Positions 1-9,184 of a stretch of 9,184 bases of DNA are shown here, piece after piece (the first letter of the stretch is position 1; each line of letters begins with the position of its first letter). A program made the translations under genes and the position numbers. The DNA comes from a virus (Duplodnaviria > Heunggongvirae > Uroviricota > Caudoviricetes). The stretch is from IMG/VR virus record IMGVR_UViG_2695420589_000017; one strand, given 5' to 3'. Below the pieces are notes generated by a model, which did no database searches, was not told where the DNA came from, and was given only the letters and a program-made list of their open reading frames with translations.

Positions 1-804
1 ATGCCGCTGGATAAATGCGAGCTACGCCACTGGCTGGCCTGTTTTGACCAGCTTGCTAAGCGTAATCCGGTATCAGCCGGCTTTTTGTTGCAGGTATGCA
101 AACAGGCGCTTAAGTACTGCCGTAAACGTCGCTACGCCGTCAGTAACGTTCTTGATGATATGGTCGTAGGTGATGTGGGAAAAAAAGCAGAAATAAGCGA
201 GCGAGTGCTAACAAACAAGGAGCTTGGCGAGCTACTCCGCGCACTGGATGAAAAAATTTTCCCGCCGTACTACAGCGCTTTAATTCGCCTTCTGATTGTC
301 TTCGGATGCCGTACCACTGAGCTAAGACGCTCCGAGGTTCGGGAATGGGATTTTAAAGAAATGCTCTGGACTGTGCCGAAAGAACACAGCAAAACGAAGG
401 TAGCAATATTCAGGCCAATACCGGAAGCGATCTTGCCGTTCGTCATGAAGCTGGTGGAGCAGAACAGGCACACGGGCTTATTGCTTGGAGAACTGAAAGG
501 GCAATCATCCGTAGCAGAGTACGGAAGAACGGCACACAGACGCATTAATCAAACCCCCTGGTCGTTGCACGACATCCGGCACACATTTACAACCATGCTG
601 AACGATTTAGGCGTGGATCCGCATATTGTCGAACAGCTTACTGCCCACCAGATGCCAGGAATGCAACGCGTCTATAACCACTCCCGTTATCTCGATGCAA
701 AGCGTGACGCTCTTAATCTATGGGTAGACCGTCTCGAGCTTCTCCAGAACAATGATGAAAAAATCGTTGTTATGACCCCGCGAATTTACCCCCAAAATTC
801 TTGA
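1..804 (+). CDS. int: Tyrosine recombinase / integrase, P4-like family, C-terminal 267 codons (5' end cut by window edge)
   Basis: Open frame from position 1 to TGA at 802-804. Translation carries tyrosine-recombinase catalytic-domain hallmarks (LHDIRHTFTTML = H-x-x-R box; RVYNHSRYLD = C-terminal Tyr region) and resembles P4-type integrases. Full-length members are about 400 aa or more, so the ATG at position 1 is most likely an internal Met. Confidence 0.85.
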   Translation: MPLDKCELRHWLACFDQLAKRNPVSAGFLLQVCKQALKYCRKRRYAVSNVLDDMVVGDVGKKAEISERVLTNKELGELLRALDEKIFPPYYSALIRLLIVFGCRTTELRRSEVREWDFKEMLWTVPKEHSKTKVAIFRPIPEAILPFVMKLVEQNRHTGLLLGELKGQSSVAEYGRTAHRRINQTPWSLHDIRHTFTTMLNDLGVDPHIVEQLTAHQMPGMQRVYNHSRYLDAKRDALNLWVDRLELLQNNDEKIVVMTPRIYPQNS

Positions 805-1223: not shown

Positions 1224-1433
1224 ATGCGTGAAATAAATGAAGATCGCGTAATCCGTGAGGATGAATGTCGTAAGTTAACTGGAGTGTGTCGCACTACACG
1301 CTACGAACTGGAGAAAAAAGGGAGCTTTCCGTCTCGCCGTAATCTTGGTGGGCGTTCTGTAGGTTGGCTGCTGTCCGAGGTTATGGAATGGGTTAAAAGC
1401 CGGGATCGCATTAATTCAGGTAAGGCAGCGTAA
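1224..1433 (+). CDS. alpA: AlpA-family phage transcriptional regulator (MerR-like HTH; excisionase/activator type)
   Basis: 69-aa product MREINEDRVIREDECRKLTGVCRTTRYELEKKGSFPSRRNLGGRSVGWLLSEVMEWVKSRDRI has the size and HTH-like pattern of AlpA proteins found beside P4-type integrases. ATG 1224 is preceded by AGG at 1214-1216; the longer GTG-1137 start lacks an RBS (the GTG lies inside GAGGTG). Confidence 0.75.
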   Translation: MREINEDRVIREDECRKLTGVCRTTRYELEKKGSFPSRRNLGGRSVGWLLSEVMEWVKSRDRINSGKAA

Positions 1434-1462
1434 AGGGGAGCATATGACATATAAAACAAAGA

Positions 1463-1478
1463 CGACCGGGGGCGGTCG
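1463..1478 (-). terminator. Candidate rho-independent terminator for the minus-strand unit (hairpin CGACCG-GGGG-CGGTCG followed on the minus strand by a U-rich tract)
   Basis: 6-bp GC stem with 4-nt loop at 1463-1478. The minus-strand transcript continues into UCUUUGUUUUAUAU (reverse complement of 1447-1460). No T-run follows on the plus strand, so it is not a good terminator for alpA. Confidence 0.35.
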
Positions 1479-1547
1479 CCAATGGATACACACTAAACTT
1501 GAACGCATCACCAACAATGCCACATTTGCGGCTGGTGGGCAATGTGA

Positions 1548-1721
1548 TCAGTCAGATTTTGTTCGTTCCAAGGTTTGCAACGAGAGCTTTTTCCTGTGCT
1601 CTTTAAGGAATTTCTCAAGAGCAAAAGCACATGGCGCGAATCTTTCTGATTCATGCTCTATCTTTCTGCGCCGTCTTTTCCGTGCCGGTGATAATGTTTT
1701 GGTCAATTCTTTATCGGTCAT
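1548..1721 (-). CDS. Hypothetical small basic protein (57 aa; MTDKELTKTLSPARKRRRRKIEHESERF...)
   Basis: Minus-strand ORF downstream of the 101-aa gene. The internal ATG (minus-strand coordinate 1721) is preceded by AGGA with about 7-nt spacing; the longer ATG at 1736 is an alternative. Lys/Arg-rich product and a plausible terminator 70 nt downstream. Short, so coding status is uncertain. Confidence 0.35.
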   Translation of the reverse strand: MTDKELTKTLSPARKRRRRKIEHESERFAPCAFALEKFLKEHRKKLSLQTLERTKSD

Positions 1722-1778
1722 TGTGTTGTCCTGCATAGCAATGCGCCGTAATACCTTACACCACGGCGCTGATGGTGA

Positions 1779-2084
1779 TTACTCTGGTTCTTTGGTCTTG
1801 CGACGCTGGAGTTCTTCGCGTGCAACGGTGACAAGCTGCCCGATTTCTTCCGCTGCTTTGATGCCGATTTGTTCGACCTTAGCCAGGGCATCCAGTGACG
1901 ACACAAGGGGATTTTCTCCGCTGCCTTCTGCTTGGCGGCGGGCTATTTCTCCGCGCATGGCGGTTACGATAAATCCGGCATTGCTTTCGCCGTCCAGCTT
2001 AACGGATTCCATCCCTTGCATAACATCTAGTGGGACTCTGACAGTTGTCAGTTGTGATTTTGCGTTTTTGTTAGCCGTTGCCAT
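1779..2084 (-). CDS. Hypothetical 101-aa protein, putative ribbon-helix-helix (Arc/CopG-like) transcriptional regulator
   Basis: ATG at minus 2084 preceded by AGGAG (reverse complement of 2093-2097) with 8-nt spacing. N-terminal segment TTVRVPLDVMQGMESVKLDGESNAGFIVTAMRGEI fits a beta-strand/helix/helix pattern typical of RHH repressors (inference from pattern only). Transcribed divergently from the early operon, next to a palindromic operator. Confidence 0.6.
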   Translation of the reverse strand: MATANKNAKSQLTTVRVPLDVMQGMESVKLDGESNAGFIVTAMRGEIARRQAEGSGENPLVSSLDALAKVEQIGIKAAEEIGQLVTVAREELQRRKTKEPE

Positions 2085-2145
2085 TTCTGAAACTCCTAAT
2101 CATCGGTGTGTTTCAGTATACACAAAAAAAGAAATACAAAAAGCC

Positions 2146-2183
2146 TTGACGTGTGTTTCATGCGCTCATAACATGAAACACAC
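2146..2183 (+). promoter_or_regulatory. Putative sigma70 early promoter (-35 TTGACG 2146-2151, 17-bp spacer, -10 TAACAT 2169-2174) overlapped by a perfect 12-bp inverted repeat operator GTGTGTTTCATG-N9-CATGAAACACAC (2151-2162 / 2172-2183)
   Basis: Read directly from sequence. The palindrome arms are exact reverse complements. A third direct copy of the half-site GTGTGTTTCA lies at 2106-2115 on the side of the leftward gene. Confidence 0.45.
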
Positions 2184-2281
2184 CGAAAGGATTGTTGAAA
2201 TACAAAGAGCAACGCCCCGCAGTGCCGGAAACACATACGGGGCGTCTAACCACCAACGATAACGAGAGTATCGAGGCAGCT

Positions 2282-2804: not shown

Positions 2805-3104
2805 ATGAGAACGTATTTATCTGGCTTGACTGCCAGCGGTTATGCACACCCCCAAATTATCCCCGGCGCTATTTATCTGGATAAGAACGGTAACAGAGTA
2901 ACGGTAAAAGAACTGATGTTTGACCGTGTGTATTTTATCCGTGATGGCTATTCATTTCTTAGTTCGCTGAACGTGGAGATCTTTATTAGCAGATTCAGTC
3001 GGGAAATCCCGCTTTCCAGAAATAACCATGTGTCATGTATGGATGTTGATAAAAAACTACAGGAACTAAAAAACATGATTGCCGCGTGGAGAGAGCAGAA
3101 ATGA
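2805..3104 (+). CDS. Hypothetical protein, 99 aa, no recognisable motif
   Basis: ATG 2805 is 6 nt after the upstream stop; its own stop (3102-3104) overlaps the ATG of the helicase gene (ATGA), indicating translational coupling. Confidence 0.6.
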   Translation: MRTYLSGLTASGYAHPQIIPGAIYLDKNGNRVTVKELMFDRVYFIRDGYSFLSSLNVEIFISRFSREIPLSRNNHVSCMDVDKKLQELKNMIAAWREQK

Positions 3105-4891
3105 AAAAAGCGCCAAATTTAAAACACCAGCCGCGTGACAAAATGACGGAAGTCATCATTTTTGCGGGTAGTGATGCGTGGGCACATGCGAAACAGTGGC
3201 AGGAACAGGACGGGCGACTGGCTGGCGATAACGTGCCACCTGTCTGGCTTGGAGAGCAACAACTTGCCGAACTGGACAACCTGCAAATCGTACCGGACGG
3301 ACGCTATCGCGTGCGTCTCTATCAGGCGGGGTTATTGCGTCCGGGGCTTGTTAATACCATCGGGCAGAAACTGGCAGTGGCAGGTGTCAGGGATGCTGAT
3401 TATTACCCTGAAGGAATGCACAGCCAGAAACGGGAGAACTGGCGCGAATATCTGGAACGTGAACGGGCAGAGCAGGCGGAAAAGAAAAAGGTAGTTGAAC
3501 TGCCTGTAAAGAAAAAAGAGCGGGTAAAAGACGATAACGCTTCATCACTGGCGCTTAACCAGATGGGAGCAAGTCAACGCGGCGAAGTTCTCCTGGCACA
3601 TTATGGCGGTGAACTGGCGATTCATGCTGACTCTGACACTGTTCACCATTACAACGGCGTTGTATGGGAGCCAGTACAGGATAAAGAATTACAGCGAGCT
3701 ATGGCACAGATTTTCATTGATGCGGAGATCAGCTATTCGCAGAACGCCATTAAATCGGCGGTCGATACCATGAAGTTAAGTTTGCCTGTAATGGGGAATA
3801 CAGCCCGTAACCTGATTGGATTCAGTAACGGGGTATTTGATACCAGAACAGGTAATTTTCGGGAGCATAACAAAAACGACTGGTTGTTAATTGCCAGTGA
3901 ATTACCTTTCAGCCCACCAGCAGAGGGGGAAACGCTGGCAACACATGCGCCGAATTTCTGGAAGTGGTTACGCCGTTCGGTGGCTGAGAATGACCGCAAG
4001 GCGGATCGCGTACTGGCTGTATTATTCATGGTGCTGGCGAACCGGTACGACTGGCAGTTATTCATTGAGGTAACAGGTCCAGGGGGAAGTGGTAAAAGCG
4101 TGATGGCGGAGATTTGCACCATGCTGGCGGGTAAGGCCAACACAGTATCGGCAAGCATGAAGGCGCTGGAAGATGCAAGGGAACGCGCGTTAGTGGTTGG
4201 CTTTTCGCTGATTATCATGCCGGATATGACCCGCTACGCTGGTGATGGGGCAGGGATTAAGGCCATTACAGGCGGTGACAAGGTGGCAATTGACCCGAAA
4301 CACAAAGCCCCCTACTCAACGCGTATTCCGGCAGTAGTGCTGGCGGTTAACAATAACGCCATGTCATTCAGTGACCGCAGCGGGGGGATCTCACGTCGTC
4401 GGGTGATATTCAATTTTTCGGAAGTTGTACCGGAGAACGAACGCGACCCCATGCTGGCAGAAAAAATAGAAGGAGAGCTGGCGGTTGTGATTCGCCACCT
4501 GCTTACTCGTTTTTCTGACCAGGACGAAGCTAAACGCCTGCTGTATGAGCAGCAGAAATCAGAAGAAGCTCTGGTGATAAAACGCGAGGGCGATTCGCTG
4601 GTGGACTTCTGCGGCTATCTCATGTCGTCGGTAATGTGTGATGGTCTGTTAGTGGGTAATGCCGAAATTATTCCGTTCAGTCCGCGCAGGTATCTTTATC
4701 ACGCCTATCTGGCATATATGAGGGCACACGGATTCGGTAAACCTGTAACACTGACGCGCTTCGGTAAAGATATGCCGGGGGCAATGGCGGAATATGGCAG
4801 GGAGTATATGAAACGGAAAACGAAGCACGGTTTGCGTTCAAATGTGACCCTGACAGAGGATTCAGAAGACTGGATGCCATCATGTGCATAG
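3101..4891 (+). CDS. Replication protein: P4 alpha-like / D5-family SF3 helicase with origin-binding C-terminus (phage/plasmid primase P4-family C-terminal domain); N-terminal primase domain not evident
   Basis: 596-aa frame; ATG 3101 with GGAGAGAG 5 nt upstream. Walker A motif EVTGPGGSGKSV followed by a hydrophobic stretch ending in D (LIIMPDM). Overall size and layout match P4-family helicase-type replication proteins. Iterons lie immediately downstream. Confidence 0.85.
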   Translation: MKKAPNLKHQPRDKMTEVIIFAGSDAWAHAKQWQEQDGRLAGDNVPPVWLGEQQLAELDNLQIVPDGRYRVRLYQAGLLRPGLVNTIGQKLAVAGVRDADYYPEGMHSQKRENWREYLERERAEQAEKKKVVELPVKKKERVKDDNASSLALNQMGASQRGEVLLAHYGGELAIHADSDTVHHYNGVVWEPVQDKELQRAMAQIFIDAEISYSQNAIKSAVDTMKLSLPVMGNTARNLIGFSNGVFDTRTGNFREHNKNDWLLIASELPFSPPAEGETLATHAPNFWKWLRRSVAENDRKADRVLAVLFMVLANRYDWQLFIEVTGPGGSGKSVMAEICTMLAGKANTVSASMKALEDARERALVVGFSLIIMPDMTRYAGDGAGIKAITGGDKVAIDPKHKAPYSTRIPAVVLAVNNNAMSFSDRSGGISRRRVIFNFSEVVPENERDPMLAEKIEGELAVVIRHLLTRFSDQDEAKRLLYEQQKSEEALVIKREGDSLVDFCGYLMSSVMCDGLLVGNAEIIPFSPRRYLYHAYLAYMRAHGFGKPVTLTRFGKDMPGAMAEYGREYMKRKTKHGLRSNVTLTEDSEDWMPSCA

Positions 4892-5205: not shown

Positions 5206-5451
5206 GTGACAACGAAGCACGCCAAAAAACCACAATCTCACGCCCTTGATTTGACAGAACACTGGCTGAGGGTGGCGATAAAAATCATCGACCGCAACGC
5301 CGGGGAAGGATACGCGAAAGCACATCCCGAACTGATAAGCGCATTCATGACCACGACGGCGGCAAACTTTGCCACGCTGACAGAACGGGAGATTGCCGAA
5401 GCGGAACAGGTGACAACCATCAACGTTAAAACCGGAGAGCAGACAGCATGA
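5206..5451 (+). CDS. Hypothetical protein, 81 aa (GTG start)
   Basis: GTG 5206 with GAGG at 5194-5197 (8-nt spacing). Stop overlaps the ATG of the downstream SSB-like gene (ATGA at 5448-5451). No recognisable motif. Confidence 0.5.
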   Translation: MTTKHAKKPQSHALDLTEHWLRVAIKIIDRNAGEGYAKAHPELISAFMTTTAANFATLTEREIAEAEQVTTINVKTGEQTA

Positions 5452-5870
5452 CAGCACAGATAGCGGCTTACGGGCGGCTGGTGGCTGACCCGCAGTTAAA
5501 GACCACCAGCAAGGGTACGCAAATGACGATGGCGAGTATGGCGGTTCCCCTGCCGTGCAGCCAGGCAGATGACGGAACGGCGACGATATGGTTATCCGTC
5601 CTGGCGTTTGGCAGACAGGCTGACGCACTGGCAAAGCACCAGAAAGGCGAGCTGGTGAGCGTGGCGGGTAACATGCAGGTAAGCCAGTGGACAGGCCAGA
5701 ACGGAGAAACGCGGCAGGGCTGGCAGGTTATCGCAGACAGTGTAATCAGTGCCAGAACGGCGCGACCGGGCGGTAAAAAAGGCCAACAGGGGCAGGCCAC
5801 TGATGCACTGAACAGGGCCAAACAACAGGCGGGGAATGATGATCCGTACGGGGATAACATACCGTTTTAA
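5448..5870 (+). CDS. ssb: Single-stranded DNA-binding protein (SSB)-like, 140 aa, with conserved acidic C-terminal tip ...DDPYGDNIPF
   Basis: N-terminal OB-fold region parallels E. coli SSB in layout (GRLVADPQLKTTSKG...; WLSVLAFGRQADALAKHQKGELVSVAGNMQVSQWTGQNGETRQGWQV), a Gly/Gln-rich linker, and a C-terminus ending in IPF like the SSB DDDIPF tip. GGAGAG RBS 10 nt upstream. Confidence 0.8.
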   Translation: MTAQIAAYGRLVADPQLKTTSKGTQMTMASMAVPLPCSQADDGTATIWLSVLAFGRQADALAKHQKGELVSVAGNMQVSQWTGQNGETRQGWQVIADSVISARTARPGGKKGQQGQATDALNRAKQQAGNDDPYGDNIPF

Positions 5871-5885
5871 GCAACGAGTGACAGA

Positions 5886-5908
5886 AGCCGGAGCAATCCG
5901 GCTTTTTT
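5886..5908 (+). terminator. Rho-independent terminator after the SSB-like gene
   Basis: Stem AGCCGGA / TCCGGCT (5886-5892 / 5897-5903) with loop GCAA, followed by a run of six T (5903-5908). Confidence 0.65.
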
Positions 5909-5919
5909 GTAGGTACTCC

Positions 5920-6214
5920 NNNNNNNNNNNNNNNNNNNNNNNNNNNNNNNNNNNNNNNNNNNNNNNNNNNNNNNNNNNNNNNNNNNNNNNNNNNNNNNNN
6001 NNNNNNNNNNNNNNNNNNNNNNNNNNNNNNNNNNNNNNNNNNNNNNNNNNNNNNNNNNNNNNNNNNNNNNNNNNNNNNNNNNNNNNNNNNNNNNNNNNNN
6101 NNNNNNNNNNNNNNNNNNNNNNNNNNNNNNNNNNNNNNNNNNNNNNNNNNNNNNNNNNNNNNNNNNNNNNNNNNNNNNNNNNNNNNNNNNNNNNNNNNNN
6201 NNNNNNNNNNNNNN
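5920..6214. other. Run of 295 N (unresolved or masked sequence; true length unknown)
   Basis: Directly visible; no flanking repeat. Confidence 1.
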
Positions 6215-6434: not shown

Positions 6435-6629
6435 ATGCCAGAGAACAACAGCAGAAAACCGGATAAAAGTGCAACAGTGCACATAGACGCCGGAACTATG
6501 GAGAAGCTCGAACGCTATCAGCAGTTCATTAAAAGTCATCACCCTGGAATGCCAGTACCCACGAAAGGGCAGATTGCGAGAAGCGCGGTTGAATACTGGT
6601 ACAGGGCAACGTTAGGAGCCTGGCTATGA
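6435..6629 (+). CDS. Hypothetical small protein, 64 aa, first gene of the head operon
   Basis: ATG 6435 with GGAGG at 6423-6427 (7-nt spacing); alternative in-frame ATGs at 6402 and 6405. Stop overlaps the ATG of the protease-capsid gene (ATGA). Product MPENNSRKPDKSATVHIDAGTMEKLERYQQFIKSHHPG...; function unknown. Confidence 0.5.
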   Translation: MPENNSRKPDKSATVHIDAGTMEKLERYQQFIKSHHPGMPVPTKGQIARSAVEYWYRATLGAWL

Positions 6630-8506
6630 AAACATGGTTTTCCATTAAGGCTATGGCTGATGTTGTACATGTACGCATTTATGACGAGATCGGCGGGTAC
6701 GGTGTAAAAGCATCGGCACTTACTGACGAGATCAACGCGTGCGGTAATGTGCCTGAAATCCATCTTCGCATCCATTCACCTGGTGGCGACATCTTTGAAG
6801 GGCTGGCTATCTATAACGCCCTGAAAAATCATCCGGCAAAGAAAATTGTACACATTGAAGGCATGGCGGCTTCTATGGCCTCGTTTATTGCCATGTGTGG
6901 CGATCACATCGTTATGCCTGAAAACGCGATGATGATGATACATGCCCCCCGTGGTGTTACTGCCGGAGTGTCGGGCGACGTTCGCCGCTTTGCTGACCTG
7001 ATGGACAAGCTGGGCGACACGATGGCGGAAACCTACGCCGGAAGAACGGGCAGGAGCAAACAGGAAATCACCGCCATGATGGAGGCGGAAACCTGGATGG
7101 ATGGCAATGAGTGTAAGGCTAATGGCTTCGCAGATGAGGTTATACCCGCGATTACAGCAATGGCCAGAATTGAATCAAAACGAATCGGAGATTTTTCGAA
7201 TATGCCGGAAAATATTAAAAGCATGATCAGCCAGAAAACTGGCAGCGGAGAACAGGAACGACTCAACGGGATACGTGAATTGTTTGGCACGTTCAATGGA
7301 AGATATAACGACCTGGCTATAAGTTGTCTTGCTGATTCAGGCTGTAGCGTTGAGGATGCACGCGAACGCCTTTTACTCACTATGGGTAAAGAATCGACAC
7401 CGACAAACAAAACCACCCCCGCAAATCTTTACTACGCGTACACGGATAACGGCAACATAACCGGCGATGCAATGCGTCAGGGGCTTAATGCGCGTCTGGG
7501 ACATGAACAGGCAGAACGCGGCAACCCTTACGCCATGATGAGCCTTTTCGATATGGCACAGGCATCATTAACCCATCGCGGCATAAGCACAGGCAGCTAC
7601 AGCACACGCTCGCAGATAGTAAACGCGGCATTCACCCACAGCAGCAGCGATTTTACTTATATCCTTGCTGGTGGTGCTGAAAAATCCGTGCTTGCCGGAT
7701 GGGAACACAGCGGCGAAACGTTCCGCCAGTGGACGAAAAAAGGTTCATTGTCAAACTTCCATGAGGCACGTCGTGTTGGCCTGAATGGCTTCTCTACATT
7801 AAACAAAGTGCCGGAAGGCGCGGAATATAAATACATCACCACCAGTGACCGTGGCGAACCAATCGCGCTGGCAACTTACGGAAATATTTTCAGCATTACC
7901 CGACAGGCGATTATTAACGATGACCTGAATCAGTTAACAGTTATCCCACAGGCAATGGGGCGAGCAGCCGCCAGAACGGTGGGTAATCTGGTTCATCTGG
8001 TGCTGACAGGAAACACAAAGCTTTCTGACGGTATACCGCTGTTCAGCAAAAAACACGGAAATGATATTGATAACGGAGTCAGCACTACAGGGCTTGGCAT
8101 TGCACGCCGTGCAATGCGCACACAGAGGGATGAAAACGGTGAGGTGCTGAATATTGTGCCAAAATTCCTTCTTGTTCCTGCGGCTCTGGAAGACAGAGCG
8201 TTGCAAATGGTTAACTCAACCACGCCTTTCGGTGCCGATACAAACAGTGGTTCATATAACCCGTACCACAAACAACTGGATATTATTGTCGATCCCCGCC
8301 TTGATGAAGTCAGTGATAAGCAATGGTACATGCTTTCAGCACAGGGAACGGACACAATTGAGGTGGCTTATCTTGACGGTAATGACGAGCCTTACCTTGA
8401 GCAGCAGGAGGGCTTTATTGTTGACGGTGTGGCCTGGAAGGTCCGCATTGATGCTGGCGTTGCTGCTCTGGATTATCGCGGAATGGTCAGAGCGATTTCT
8501 TCATGA
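6626..8506 (+). CDS. Prohead (ClpP-like, S14-type) protease fused to major capsid protein, 626 aa
   Basis: Single uninterrupted frame; AGGAG 7 nt upstream of ATG 6626. N-terminal ~190 aa carry ClpP-like protease signatures (IHSPGGDIFEGLAIYNAL; GMAASMASFIA serine context; MMMIHAP histidine context). The C-terminal ~350 aa are of major-capsid size; the capsid assignment rests on size, position and my recollection of protease/major capsid fusion proteins in enterobacterial prophages, not on alignment. Strong terminator follows. Confidence 0.8.
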   Translation: MKTWFSIKAMADVVHVRIYDEIGGYGVKASALTDEINACGNVPEIHLRIHSPGGDIFEGLAIYNALKNHPAKKIVHIEGMAASMASFIAMCGDHIVMPENAMMMIHAPRGVTAGVSGDVRRFADLMDKLGDTMAETYAGRTGRSKQEITAMMEAETWMDGNECKANGFADEVIPAITAMARIESKRIGDFSNMPENIKSMISQKTGSGEQERLNGIRELFGTFNGRYNDLAISCLADSGCSVEDARERLLLTMGKESTPTNKTTPANLYYAYTDNGNITGDAMRQGLNARLGHEQAERGNPYAMMSLFDMAQASLTHRGISTGSYSTRSQIVNAAFTHSSSDFTYILAGGAEKSVLAGWEHSGETFRQWTKKGSLSNFHEARRVGLNGFSTLNKVPEGAEYKYITTSDRGEPIALATYGNIFSITRQAIINDDLNQLTVIPQAMGRAAARTVGNLVHLVLTGNTKLSDGIPLFSKKHGNDIDNGVSTTGLGIARRAMRTQRDENGEVLNIVPKFLLVPAALEDRALQMVNSTTPFGADTNSGSYNPYHKQLDIIVDPRLDEVSDKQWYMLSAQGTDTIEVAYLDGNDEPYLEQQEGFIVDGVAWKVRIDAGVAALDYRGMVRAISS

Positions 8507-8510
8507 GAAC

Positions 8511-8535
8511 AAGGCGGCAGCAGCCGCCTTTTTTG
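8511..8535 (+). terminator. Rho-independent terminator after the capsid gene
   Basis: Stem GGCGGC / GCCGCC (8513-8518 / 8523-8528) with loop AGCA, flanked by AA and T-run TTTTTT (8529-8534). Confidence 0.7.
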
Positions 8536-8588
8536 CGGGTCCTCCTGGTGGGGGGGGCCTGTCCACGGGGCGGGTCGGCGCGGAAAAA

Positions 8589-8783
8589 AACGCATTTTTG
8601 TGGTTTTATCGTCATCATCATCATGTGTGTAACCTGTTGTTTTTANNNNNNNNNNNNNNNNNNNNNNNNNNNNNNNNNNNNNNNNNNNNNNNNNNNNNNN
8701 NNNNNNNNNNNNNNNNNNNNNNNNNNAACGCATTTTTGTGGTTTTATCGTCATCATCATCATGTGTGTAACCTGTTGTTTTTA
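8589..8783. repeat. Two identical 57-nt direct repeats (8589-8645 and 8727-8783) flanking an 81-nt N run
   Basis: AACGCATTTTTGTGGTTTTATCGTCATCATCATCATGTGTGTAACCTGTTGTTTTTA occurs identically on both sides of the N run; it contains a (CAT)4 tract. Confidence 0.9.
8646..8726. other. Run of 81 N (unresolved or masked sequence)
   Basis: Directly visible. Confidence 1.
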
Positions 8784-8902: not shown

Positions 8903-9184
8903 ATGACAGAAGCCGAAATACTGGGATTAATCCGCCGCGTCGCCGGAATCAGCCAGCAGGTTGACGAACAGGCCATGCAACCGGACAGCGTGACCGCTGA
9001 AAATTATGCGCGTGTGGTGGATGAGGTAATGCGCCGTGACGGTATTGAGCTTAACGGCGTGGATATGCGCAACATACGAACCAGAGTTCTTGAGTTGCTG
9101 GCATACCGTCGCCGTTCTCAACAACGGAGGGAGAGCGCGAAAAATACTTACCAGTGGAGGAAGCCGGAGCACTTACGGCGGTAA
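8903..9184 (+). CDS. Hypothetical protein, 93 aa
   Basis: ATG 8903 preceded by GGGGG (4-nt spacing); stop TAA at 9182-9184 at the window end. Arg-rich C-terminus. Separate transcription unit after the capsid terminator. No motif recognised. Confidence 0.5.
   Translation: MTEAEILGLIRRVAGISQQVDEQAMQPDSVTAENYARVVDEVMRRDGIELNGVDMRNIRTRVLELLAYRRRSQQRRESAKNTYQWRKPEHLRR

What the first reader, a model, noticed from the sequence alone, without database searches (positions are those of the whole stretch)
6435..8506. Single-polypeptide prohead protease / major capsid fusion as the head gene of a satellite
A 626-aa frame fuses a ClpP-like maturation protease to a capsid-sized C-terminal domain, preceded by a coupled 64-aa gene. 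A fusion fixes protease-to-capsid stoichiometry and implies self-cleavage during maturation. It gives the satellite its own shell rather than a remodelled helper shell, which could make small capsids that exclude helper genomes.
Basis: partly seen in the sequence, partly recalled or inferred. Interest (0 to 1): 0.7.

Follow-up and report, generated by a model that had tools for sequence, protein, structure and literature searches.

The report
Protease–capsid fusion gene in PICI satellite
This is a real, intact gene that joins a head-maturation protease, a scaffold-like segment and a major capsid protein in one reading frame inside a small phage satellite of Shigella sonnei. Both the gene family and its presence in such satellites are already catalogued; what the satellite uses it for has not been tested.

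Summary
A 626-aa ORF (6626-8506) fuses a ClpP-like prohead protease to an HK97-type capsid domain, and a 64-aa gene precedes it with an ATGA start/stop overlap.

It is not new. NCBIfam has a dedicated model (NF045540, 863 bits against a cut-off of 475). The identical protein is named in Shigella sonnei records. Phage Gifsy-2, whose fused capsid gene has been studied, is a full-length homologue at 48% identity.

The host element is a 9.9-kb classical Gram-negative PICI: int, alpA, primase, SSB and a helper-type cos. It has no portal, terminase or connector genes, so it is not a capsid-forming PICI and cannot build a head alone.

"Own small shell" is untested. In the model PICI EcCICFT073 the capsid gene (not shown here to be the same type) is dispensable, and DNA goes into phage-sized heads.

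New here:
- Satellite-borne fusions form one clade across six genera (300/300 bootstraps).
- They are under purifying selection (dN/dS 0.05-0.19).
- They are always coupled to the 64-aa gene, which is absent from 50,697 phage records.
- They have a shorter post-protease segment than phage copies.
- A Shine-Dalgarno-like motif precedes invariant Met193 in 49/49 genes. This suggests a nested start, so the 1:1 stoichiometry claim is doubtful.

The parts
1..804 (+). C-terminal remnant ORF (267 aa) of the island's tyrosine integrase. In this genome the 412-aa gene carries a premature stop.
   Evidence: PF00589 E 6e-18. Comparing L006 with L002 shows a stop at codon 118.
1224..1433 (+). AlpA-family regulator/excisionase, a hallmark gene of Gram-negative PICIs.
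   Evidence: PF05930 is on record for the identical gene in L002-L007. The coordinates are mapped from L006.
3101..4891 (+). Primase/replicase of the D5_N / DUF5906 / Pox_D5 type (P4-family primase C-terminal region).
   Evidence: Pfam and phrog_864, E 2e-188. TIGR01613 scores below its cut-off.
5448..5870 (+). Single-strand DNA-binding protein.
   Evidence: PF00436 E 4e-16.
5909..6214 (+). First cos-like site, almost wholly masked by Ns in the window. It follows the SSB terminator hairpin (5886-5908).
   Evidence: The unmasked sister locus L002 9385-9470 aligns with the second cos and with the helper prophage cos.
6435..6629 (+). p64, a 64-aa satellite-specific gene translationally coupled to the fusion. 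It may be a ribbon-helix-helix protein.
   Evidence: phrog_4934 E 4e-40. The ATGA overlap is conserved in 10/10 satellite loci. There is no match in 50,697 phage records. The AF2 model shows an extended segment plus two helices at pLDDT 69.5. The fold search gave nothing significant.
6626..8506 (+). Tripartite head gene: ClpP-like prohead protease, scaffold-like middle and HK97-type major capsid protein (626 aa).
   Evidence: NF045540 at 863 bits against a cut-off of 475. It is 48% identical to the Gifsy-2 fused gene over residues 3-623.
6668..7141 (+). Protease domain (residues 15-172). The putative catalytic Ser83 is at 6872-6874 and His106 at 6941-6943. Glu155 occupies the ClpP Asp position.
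   Evidence: NF045542 E 8e-60. Alignment to solved ClpP structures. Ser83, His106 and Glu155 are invariant in 49/49 fusions.
7187..7204 (+). Putative nested translation start: a GGAG at 7187-7190 and the invariant Met193 codon at 7202-7204. It would give a 434-aa scaffold-capsid product.
   Evidence: An SD-like core is present in 49/49 genes against a 4.3% background. The codon at -5 is G-ending in 43/43 genes against 16.5 expected. The same signal is present in Gifsy-2 and LLS. This is inferred, not shown.
7616..8494 (+). Major capsid protein domain (residues 331-623).
   Evidence: PF25209 E 1e-54. A 38-sequence profile hits solved Mu GpT-type capsid proteins 8rkc/8rkx/9jod at E about 7e-10.
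8513..8534 (+). Intrinsic-terminator-like hairpin (GGCGGC-agca-GCCGCC followed by T6) just after the stop codon.
   Evidence: Read directly from the sequence. The automatic scan did not list it on the + strand.
8535..8645 (+). Second cos site of helper type: cosQ-like GGGTCCT (8537-8543), cosN-like ACGGGGCGGGTCGGCGCGG (8565-8583) and a cosB-like part. The 57 nt after the N-run (8727-8783) repeat 8589-8645 and are probably an assembly artefact.
   Evidence: Near-identity to the cos region upstream of terS in the helper prophage of E. coli UTAK-6. The lambda/LLS cohesive-end sequences are quoted in PMC12315714. L002 has a spacer 138 nt shorter.
8903..9184 (+). p93, a conserved 93-aa gene of unknown function at the island's right end, just after cos.
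   Evidence: phrog_1561 E 3e-53. No Pfam, NCBIfam or convincing PDB match (best E 0.009, to QmcA).

Best explanation
The ORF is a functional member of the Gifsy-2-type 'tripartite' head gene family: an N-terminal ClpP-like serine protease, a scaffold-like middle and a C-terminal HK97-fold major capsid protein. It is carried by a classical, cos-packaged Gram-negative PICI satellite of Shigella sonnei / E. coli.

Proposed mechanism; all steps are inferred unless marked otherwise.
1. After helper induction, p64 and the fusion are translated as a coupled pair.
2. A second, shorter scaffold-capsid product probably starts at Met193.
3. These subunits assemble, alone or mixed with the helper's homologous subunits, on a helper-supplied portal.
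4. The tethered protease is enclosed in the procapsid and then removes the protease and scaffold parts. This leaves a capsid protein whose homology to the MCP profile spans about 300 residues (the mature N-terminus is not determined).
5. Helper terminase fills the head from the helper-type cos that lies directly after the gene.

Shown here: domain identity, intact catalytic residues, purifying selection, a satellite-specific lineage, helper-type cos, and the absence of portal and terminase genes. Not shown: expression, assembly, cleavage, and the size of the resulting capsid.
For: Family identity:
- (NF045540 863/475).
- 48% identity to Gifsy-2 over the full length, and 72 phage records with at least 80% coverage.
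- Capsid fold supported by PF25209 and by profile hits to solved Mu GpT-type capsids.

The gene looks functional rather than decaying:
- Ser83, His106 and Glu155 are invariant in 49 fusions.
- dN/dS is 0.05-0.19 in all three domains.

Satellite-specific lineage:
- The 9 distinct satellite copies, from Escherichia/Shigella, Kluyvera, Yersinia, Buttiauxella, Moellerella and Rahnella, form one bipartition. Support is 300/300 for the full length, 300/300 for the capsid domain and 292/300 for the middle.
- In the capsid domain the lowest satellite-satellite identity (0.65) exceeds the highest satellite-phage identity (0.62).
- All copies have the coupled p64 gene, which no phage record has.
- All have a 35-41-aa post-protease segment, against 54-78 aa in 40 phage copies.

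Dependence on a helper:
- No portal, terminase or tail genes lie in the 9.86-kb island.
- The cos is near-identical to a helper prophage cos.

Nested start.
Against: - No experiment exists for this gene in any satellite.
- In the model PICI EcCICFT073, which has the same backbone type, deleting the capsid gene c1499 had no effect on transfer or interference, and DNA was packaged at phage size (PMC6092414). I did not check whether c1499 is the same type of capsid gene as this fusion.
- In S. sonnei the island is decaying. The integrase has a premature stop in this genome, and most strains carry a truncated 381-aa allele consistent with a frameshift.
- My structure prediction of the fusion failed (pLDDT 42.5), so the fold rests on profiles only.
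- The loci sample is one genome per species and was seeded with peptide words from the query. Monophyly could weaken with denser sampling.
Confidence: 0.6

Rival explanations
1. One reading: the satellite's own capsid subunit, with its shortened scaffold segment and/or p64, builds satellite-sized small capsids on helper portals. These fit one or two 9.9-kb genomes and exclude the roughly 45-kb helper genome.
For: - The capsid and scaffold-like domains are satellite-specific, but the protease domain is not.
- The post-protease segment is shorter in all satellites.
- p64 is satellite-specific and coupled.
- Precedents: SaPIbov5 Ccm is a capsid homologue that makes small capsids, PmCI172 carries a capsid homologue and makes small heads, and cf-PICIs build small heads from their own capsid protein.
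Against: - E. coli classical PICIs are reported to be packaged as concatemers in phage-sized heads.
- The EcCICFT073 capsid gene is dispensable.
- Nothing in the sequence predicts the triangulation number.
- 9.9 kb also fits four to five copies in a T=7 head.
Confidence: 0.3
2. A redundant passenger or back-up copy. The gene was captured from a helper's late operon and merely replaces or supplements the helper gene, especially when the satellite is embedded in a helper late gene. It has no satellite-specific role.
For: - Helper-embedded copies interrupt the helper's own fusion gene in Kluyvera and Rahnella, and terL in E. coli UTAK-6.
- PMC10111431 proposes exactly this back-up idea and notes that knocking out a capsid gene was tolerated.
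- The protease domain is mosaic with phage copies.
Against: - The satellite capsid domains are a deep, separate clade, at most 62% identical to any phage copy, so this is not recent capture.
- The gene is kept at chromosomal sites where no helper gene is interrupted.
- The UTAK-6 island sits in terL yet carries a capsid gene, not a terL.
- dN/dS is 0.05-0.19.
Confidence: 0.2
3. An interference factor. The satellite subunit co-assembles with the helper subunits, or its protease acts on them, to poison helper head assembly. This lowers helper yield rather than building satellite heads.
For: - It is homologous to the helper's subunit (54% identity) and so is plausibly able to co-assemble.
- PICIs commonly interfere with helper capsid assembly.
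Against: - A poison subunit would not need a conserved catalytic dyad and purifying selection along the full length.
- Interference in E. coli PICIs maps to Rpp, not to the capsid gene.
Confidence: 0.1
4. Not a satellite gene at all, but a leftover of a degraded prophage.
For: - The integrase has a premature stop in this genome.
- Many S. sonnei strains carry a truncated allele consistent with a frameshift.
Against: - The same compact int-alpA-primase-SSB-p64-fusion-cos layout recurs at several attachment sites and in six genera, bounded by direct repeats.
- It matches the published PICI and HE-PICI architecture.
Confidence: 0.03

Closest known systems
Gifsy-2 'tripartite capsid gene' (Effantin et al. 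2010, Virology 402:355), with the same gene in phages mEp213, mEp460, LLS, cdtI, Stx2-converting phages and Pseudomonas LESphi3; NCBIfam NF045540
   Same: The same three-part architecture in one ORF, alignable over the full length (48-52% identity). The Ser/His residues are the same, as is the internal Met with an SD-like motif. The cos type is lambda-like.
   Different: In phages the gene lies between the portal and a DUF2190 gene (annotated as a putative decoration protein in phage LLS), inside a complete head module. Here the gene stands alone after a satellite-specific 64-aa gene. It belongs to a separate clade and lacks 20-40 residues after the protease.
Classical Gram-negative PICIs such as EcCICFT073 (Fillol-Salom 2018, 2019)
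   Same: An int-alpA-primase backbone, a size of about 10 kb, two cos sites with lambda-like cosQ/cosN, a capsid gene in the late zone, and dependence on helper terminase.
   Different: EcCICFT073 carries a putative capsid protein (c1499) plus a head decoration gene and RppA. I did not compare c1499 with this fusion. The window island carries the protease-scaffold-capsid fusion and has no detectable Rpp. Its cosB-like part also resembles the helper's.
Capsid-forming PICIs (cf-PICI, EcCIEDL933; Alqurainy et al.)
   Same: A satellite that encodes its own capsid protein and maturation protease.
   Different: cf-PICIs also encode portal, head-tail connectors, HNH, TerS and TerL, and take only tails from the helper. 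None of those genes is present here.
Helper-embedded PICIs (Nielsen et al. 2023, PMC10111431)
   Same: Sister islands of this one are embedded in helper terL (E. coli UTAK-6) or in the helper's own fusion gene (Kluyvera, Rahnella), while carrying a homologue of a helper late gene.
   Different: The window copy is at a chromosomal site between cspD and clpS, not in a prophage.
SaPIbov5 Ccm (a satellite-encoded capsid homologue that redirects capsid size)
   Same: A satellite-borne homologue of the helper's HK97-fold capsid protein in a cos-packaged island.
   Different: No sequence relationship was tested. As far as I know, Ccm has no protease domain. Size redirection is shown for Ccm and untested here.
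Lambda C / Nu3 nested genes
   Same: A protease gene with an in-frame internal start that yields a scaffold product. This is the proposed analogue of the Met193 start.
   Different: In lambda the capsid protein E is a separate gene. The internal start here is inferred from sequence conservation only.

Membership tests
ClpP-like prohead protease / major capsid protein fusion (NF045540; Gifsy-2 type) | Whole-protein profile score above the curated cut-off | tested here: met
   863.2 bits against a cut-off of 475. phrog_133 E 1e-272.
ClpP-like prohead protease / major capsid protein fusion (NF045540; Gifsy-2 type) | N-terminal ClpP-related head maturation protease with catalytic Ser and His | tested here: met
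   NF045542 E 8e-60 at residues 15-172. The alignment to solved ClpP places Ser83 in GMAASM and His106 in MIHAP. Both are invariant in 49/49 fusions. Activity itself was not tested.
ClpP-like prohead protease / major capsid protein fusion (NF045540; Gifsy-2 type) | C-terminal HK97-fold major capsid domain | tested here: met
   PF25209 E 1e-54. A profile of 38 C-terminal domains hits solved Mu GpT-type capsid proteins at E 7e-10. The 3D prediction was unusable (pLDDT 42.5), so support comes from profiles, not from a model.
ClpP-like prohead protease / major capsid protein fusion (NF045540; Gifsy-2 type) | One uninterrupted reading frame across all three parts | tested here: met
   The window is identical to a public contig. 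A truncated allele consistent with a frameshift exists in other S. sonnei strains.
ClpP-like prohead protease / major capsid protein fusion (NF045540; Gifsy-2 type) | Proteolytic removal of the protease and scaffold parts, so that only the C-terminal domain remains in mature heads | not testable with these tools
   Needs protein analysis of particles. From my recollection it was reported for Gifsy-2 by Effantin et al. 2010, a paper not held in the library.
Classical Gram-negative PICI | Integrase, AlpA regulator and primase-replicase in one direction at the left end | tested here: met
   The integrase is a pseudogene in this particular genome.
Classical Gram-negative PICI | Small size (about 10-20 kb), flanked by attachment-site repeats, with no tail or lysis genes | tested here: met
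   An 18-bp direct repeat at L002 3012 and 12873 gives 9.86 kb.
Classical Gram-negative PICI | Carries a helper-type cos (or terS) for packaging by the helper terminase | tested here: met
   cosQ/cosN-like sequence near-identical to a lambdoid helper prophage cos. A second copy lies upstream of p64.
Classical Gram-negative PICI | Helper-dependent induction, replication and high-frequency transfer | not testable with these tools
   Experimental property. Shown for EcCICFT073 (PMC6092414), not for this island.
Classical Gram-negative PICI | Rpp (redirecting phage packaging) protein | tested here: not met
   p64, p93 and the DUF1441 protein of sister islands give no sequence match to any solved structure that would be Rpp. 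The check was against solved-structure sequences only. Rpp is common in these PICIs but is not a defining feature.
Capsid-forming PICI (cf-PICI) | Own portal, head-tail adaptor/connector and large terminase in addition to capsid and protease | tested here: not met
   None of these lies between the att repeats. The defining list comes from PMC10085698 and the cf-PICI preprint.
Size-redirecting capsid homologues (Ccm type) | Expression yields satellite-sized capsids from helper components | not testable with these tools
   Needs electron microscopy and sizing of packaged DNA.

The most novel reading that the evidence does not exclude
The p64 plus short-scaffold fusion pair is a minimal, satellite-specific capsid-forming module. 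It would be an evolutionary and functional intermediate between classical PICIs, which steal whole heads, and cf-PICIs, which steal only tails. Under this reading the satellite supplies only the shell subunit, with its own protease and scaffold, and assembles it on helper portals into heads of satellite-determined size. The shortened scaffold segment and/or p64 would act as the size determinant, and the Met193 nested start would set the protease:shell ratio.
Probability: 0.25. Interest if true: 0.6.

Novelty: already known. Interest (0 to 1): 0.3.

Why it matters
The fusion as described adds nothing new. It is a named protein family with an experimentally studied phage member, and capsid genes are recorded in most reference Gram-negative PICIs.

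What remains open is why so many PICIs keep a capsid gene when the one knockout done so far showed no phenotype. This analysis makes that question sharper and testable:
- The satellite copies are an old, separate lineage under purifying selection.
- They have a private partner gene (p64) and a consistently shortened scaffold segment.
- The family-wide internal start signal, if real, explains how phages with a fused protease-capsid gene avoid loading one protease per shell subunit.

Tried and rejected
- **AlphaFold2 of the full fusion.** I used a 15-sequence alignment of sequences 62-92% identical to the query. The result was mean pLDDT 42.5 and pTM 0.29, too poor for a fold search, so none was run on it.
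- **AlphaFold2 of p64.** The model was moderate (pLDDT 69.5). Foldseek against the PDB found nothing significant; the best E was 4.3, with only a weak resemblance to the RHH protein SegB. The ribbon-helix-helix reading of p64 remains a guess from its sequence pattern.
- **Looking for Rpp.** p64, p93 and the DUF1441 protein of sister islands gave no credible match among solved-structure sequences.
- **Pfam and NCBIfam on p64 and p93.** Nothing found.
- **Word-based homology search with p64.** Only 6 close hits.
- **Tandem-repeat search for iterons** between SSB and p64 in L002. None found.
- **Promoter scan.** No sigma-70-like promoter on the + strand upstream of p64. The scan also missed the evident + strand terminators, so I read those by eye.
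- **Reading the Gifsy-2 paper.** It is not held, so its content is cited second-hand or from memory.
- **First bootstrap script.** It timed out and was replaced by a faster implementation.
- **P4-like classification.** Considered and rejected: no Sid, Psu or Delta family was matched in the Pfam/PHROG scans of the island's main ORFs, and TIGR01613 is below its cut-off.
Full report

Yes. The window has an uninterrupted + strand ORF at 6626..8506 encoding 626 aa. Residues 44-173 match Pfam CLP_protease (E 8e-33) and residues 331-623 match Phage_capsid_4 (E 1e-54). NCBIfam places residues 15-172 in the 'head maturation protease, ClpP-related' domain. The whole protein falls in NF045540, 'ClpP-like prohead protease/major capsid protein fusion protein', at 863 bits against a curated cut-off of 475. 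PHROGs gives phrog_133 at E 1e-272.

The 64-aa ORF at 6435..6629 has a GGAGG 7 nt before its ATG. Its TGA stop overlaps the fusion's ATG (ctATGAaa). All the coordinates in the finding are therefore right.

The frame is not a sequencing artefact. The window is identical at every non-N base to Shigella sonnei contig CXDA01000046.1 (L006 3376-12559). The identical protein is found on 113 contigs. In addition, 49 distinct homologues from many genera are continuous over the same length.

**2. What surrounds it?**

The same protein occurs in a compact island between cspD and clpS. The gene order is:
- integrase, AlpA, several small genes and a DUF4222 protein;
- a D5/P4-type primase and SSB;
- a non-coding stretch, then p64, the fusion, another non-coding stretch and a 93-aa gene.

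In the complete genome L002 an 18-bp direct repeat (AATGGTGTAGTTAATTTT) bounds 9.86 kb. There is no portal, terminase, connector, tail or lysis gene.

The sequence directly after the fusion's stop has three parts: a terminator hairpin (8513-8534), a cosQ-like GGGTCCT (8537-8543) and a cosN-like ACGGGGCGGGTCGGCGCGG (8565-8583). This stretch is almost identical to the cos region upstream of the terS (DUF1441) gene of a lambdoid prophage in E. coli UTAK-6. It also resembles the lambda and LLS cohesive ends quoted in PMC12315714.

A second cos-like copy lies upstream of p64 in L002. In the window it is hidden by the 5920-6214 N-run.

This layout matches the published Gram-negative PICI: int, alpA and pri in one direction, cos sites with lambda-like cosQ/cosN, and often a capsid gene (PMC6092414, PMC6739421, PMC10111431). 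'Satellite' is therefore right, and more exactly a classical PICI. It is not a capsid-forming PICI, because that type is defined by also carrying portal, head-tail connectors, HNH, TerS and TerL.

**3. Is the fusion new?**

No.
- RefSeq already names this exact protein with the NF045540 name.
- DNA similar to the 2.9-kb stretch spanning p64, the fusion, cos and p93 occurs in 1320 of 5426 complete E. coli genomes; 143 of them cover at least 80% of it.
- 72 deposited phage genomes hold a full-length homologue. They include Gifsy-2 (48% identity), mEp213, mEp460, LLS, cdtI, Stx2-converting phages and Pseudomonas LESphi3.
- Gifsy-2's fused prohead protease/coat gene was studied by Effantin et al. 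[quoted passage not shown] The paper is not held in the library. [quoted passage not shown]
- From my memory of its abstract, that paper describes a ClpP-like N-terminus, a central region of about 200 residues with a possible scaffolding role, a C-terminal capsid protein and T=7 lambdoid heads with a gpD-like decoration protein.
- Capsid genes in PICIs are also on record: 21 of 29 reference Gram-negative PICIs have one (PMC10111431).

**4. What the comparison adds**

I collected one locus per species and classified the context by tblastn with reference proteins. Two groups separated cleanly.

| Feature | Phage-context fusions | Satellite-context fusions |
|---|---|---|
| Identity to the window protein | at most 51% | 57-100% |
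| Neighbours | terS(DUF1441)-terL-portal-fusion-DUF2190-tail modules | int/alpA/primase islands with a p64 homologue directly upstream and no adjacent portal of their own |
| Genera | Erwinia, Serratia, Rahnella, Morganella, Edwardsiella, Pseudomonas, Shewanella, Pasteurellaceae | Escherichia/Shigella, Kluyvera, Yersinia, Buttiauxella, Moellerella, Rahnella |
| Post-protease segment | 54-78 aa in all 40 | 35-41 aa in all 9 |

Further results:
- The abundant E. coli group at 62% identity (637 aa) is also satellite-borne.
- The nine distinct satellite proteins form one bipartition. Support is 300/300 bootstraps for the full length, 300/300 for the capsid domain, 292/300 for the middle region and only 1/300 for the protease domain.
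- The capsid and scaffold-like parts are therefore an old satellite lineage, while the protease part is exchanged with phages.
- dN/dS is 0.05-0.19 in all three parts.
- Ser83, His106 and Glu155 (the ClpP Asp position) are invariant in all 49 fusions.
- In the three-way alignment with Gifsy-2 and LLS, the missing residues are a Q/P/A-rich stretch.
- p64 keeps the same 4-nt overlap in 10/10 satellite loci and has no match in 50,697 phage records.

**5. A probable nested start**

Met193, just after the protease domain, is invariant in 49/49 fusions. An RGGA core (GAGGA, AGGAG or AAGGA) lies about 10 nt upstream in 49/49 genes, against 4.3% of codon positions in the same genes.

The encoded residues vary (G/E/Q/K followed by D/E). 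Even so, the two-fold-degenerate codon at -5 is G-ending in 43/43 genes, against 16.5 expected from the same genes' codon usage. For unique sequence contexts the figures are 30/30 against 11.7. Neighbouring third positions vary freely. Gifsy-2 (Met221) and LLS (Met211) have the same signal.

This is nucleotide-level conservation of a Shine-Dalgarno-like element. The simplest reading is an in-frame internal start that gives a scaffold-capsid protein (434 aa here), as with lambda C/Nu3. It is an inference, and I found no paper describing it. If true, the fusion does not fix a 1:1 protease:capsid ratio.

**6. What does the satellite use it for?**

This is unknown. Because portal, terminase and connectors are missing, the island cannot make 'its own shell' unaided. 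At most it supplies the shell subunit.

The small-capsid idea has precedents: Ccm of SaPIbov5, PmCI172 and the cf-PICIs. It also fits the satellite-specific capsid and scaffold lineage.

The only direct experiment on a classical E. coli PICI argues the other way. Deleting the EcCICFT073 capsid gene c1499 changed neither transfer nor lambda interference, and all packaged DNA was phage-sized. I did not establish that c1499 is the same type of gene as this fusion, so the result may not carry over.

The 'back-up copy' idea of PMC10111431 fits the helper-embedded sister islands. One sits in terL in E. coli UTAK-6. Others sit inside the helper's own fusion gene, near residues 103-114, in Kluyvera and Rahnella. 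It does not fit the deep divergence from all phage copies, nor the retention of the gene at chromosomal sites.

My best account is a functional shell-subunit gene used with helper portal and terminase. Capsid size remains open.

**7. State of this particular copy**

In the window's genome the integrase has a premature stop at codon 118, and the window begins at the remnant ORF. Most S. sonnei genomes, including Ss046, carry a 381-aa allele that is identical through residue 355 and then has an unrelated 26-residue tail, consistent with a frameshift. The island is therefore decaying in S. sonnei, and the window holds the minority intact allele.

**8. Verdict**

The fusion and its satellite setting are already known, so interest is low to moderate. 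It rests on three things: the unexplained, conserved satellite-specific p64-fusion module; the shortened scaffold segment; and the family-wide nested-start signal.

Noticed in passing
window 7187-7204 (Met193 codon at 7202-7204); also L089 (Gifsy-2) and L090 (LLS): An invariant in-frame Met lies just after the protease domain, with a Shine-Dalgarno-like RGGA about 10 nt upstream in 49/49 family members. The motif is kept by synonymous codon choice (43/43 G-ending against 16.5 expected). This suggests a nested scaffold-capsid product like lambda C/Nu3.
   Followed up: partly
window 5909-6214 (masked) and 8535-8645; L002 9385-9470 and 11905-12000: Two cos-like sites in the same orientation bracket the p64-fusion module. 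Both are near-identical to a lambdoid helper prophage's cos, including the cosB-like part. EcCICFT073 is reported to have two cos sites, but with a different cosB.
   Followed up: partly
window 5920-6214 and 8646-8726; duplicate 8589-8645 / 8727-8783: Both N-runs sit on the repeated cos sequences. The 57-nt duplicate flanking the second N-run is probably a scaffolding or gap artefact of the draft assembly, because the complete genome L002 has a spacer 138 nt shorter there.
   Followed up: partly
window 1-804; L006 2941-4179: The island's integrase carries a premature stop at codon 118 in this genome, so this copy is probably unable to excise. The window starts at the 267-aa remnant ORF.
   Followed up: yes
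fusion gene codon 355 onward (window about 7690); proteins P0128, P0129, P0139: Most Shigella sonnei genomes (at least 1000 contigs, including Ss046) hold a 381-aa allele annotated 'protease/scaffold protein'. It is identical through residue 355 and then has an unrelated 26-residue tail, consistent with a frameshift. The intact 626-aa allele is on 113 contigs.
   Followed up: partly
L001 5670-18224; L013 3224-16143; L080 2645-15194: Sister islands are embedded in helper prophage late genes. One lies inside terL in E. coli UTAK-6. Two lie inside the helper's own protease/capsid fusion gene, near residues 103-114, in Kluyvera and Rahnella. This is the published HE-PICI configuration.
   Followed up: partly
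window 6435-6629: p64 has the sequence pattern of a ribbon-helix-helix protein: a conserved VH[IL]D strand, a helix, an HPxxPxP loop and a second helix. It is found only in satellites. Its role, whether regulator of the module or assembly partner, is unknown.
   Followed up: partly
window 8903-9184; L008 12171-12940: A conserved 93-aa gene (phrog_1561) of unknown function sits just after cos, where terS sits in the helper. Sister islands carry an extra DUF1441 (terS-family) gene before it. The window island lacks that gene.
   Followed up: partly
fusion gene, window against L001 14299-16188: There is a mosaic within the gene. dS is 0.035 in the protease part and 0.77 in the capsid part between two satellite copies. 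This points to recombination breakpoints inside the ORF.
   Followed up: partly
window 1444-2262 (+) and 1779-2084 (-): The 272-aa + strand ORF has no family match on record in the sister loci and overlaps a - strand 101-aa gene that matches phrog_6522 (E 7e-63). The long + strand ORF may be spurious.
   Followed up: no
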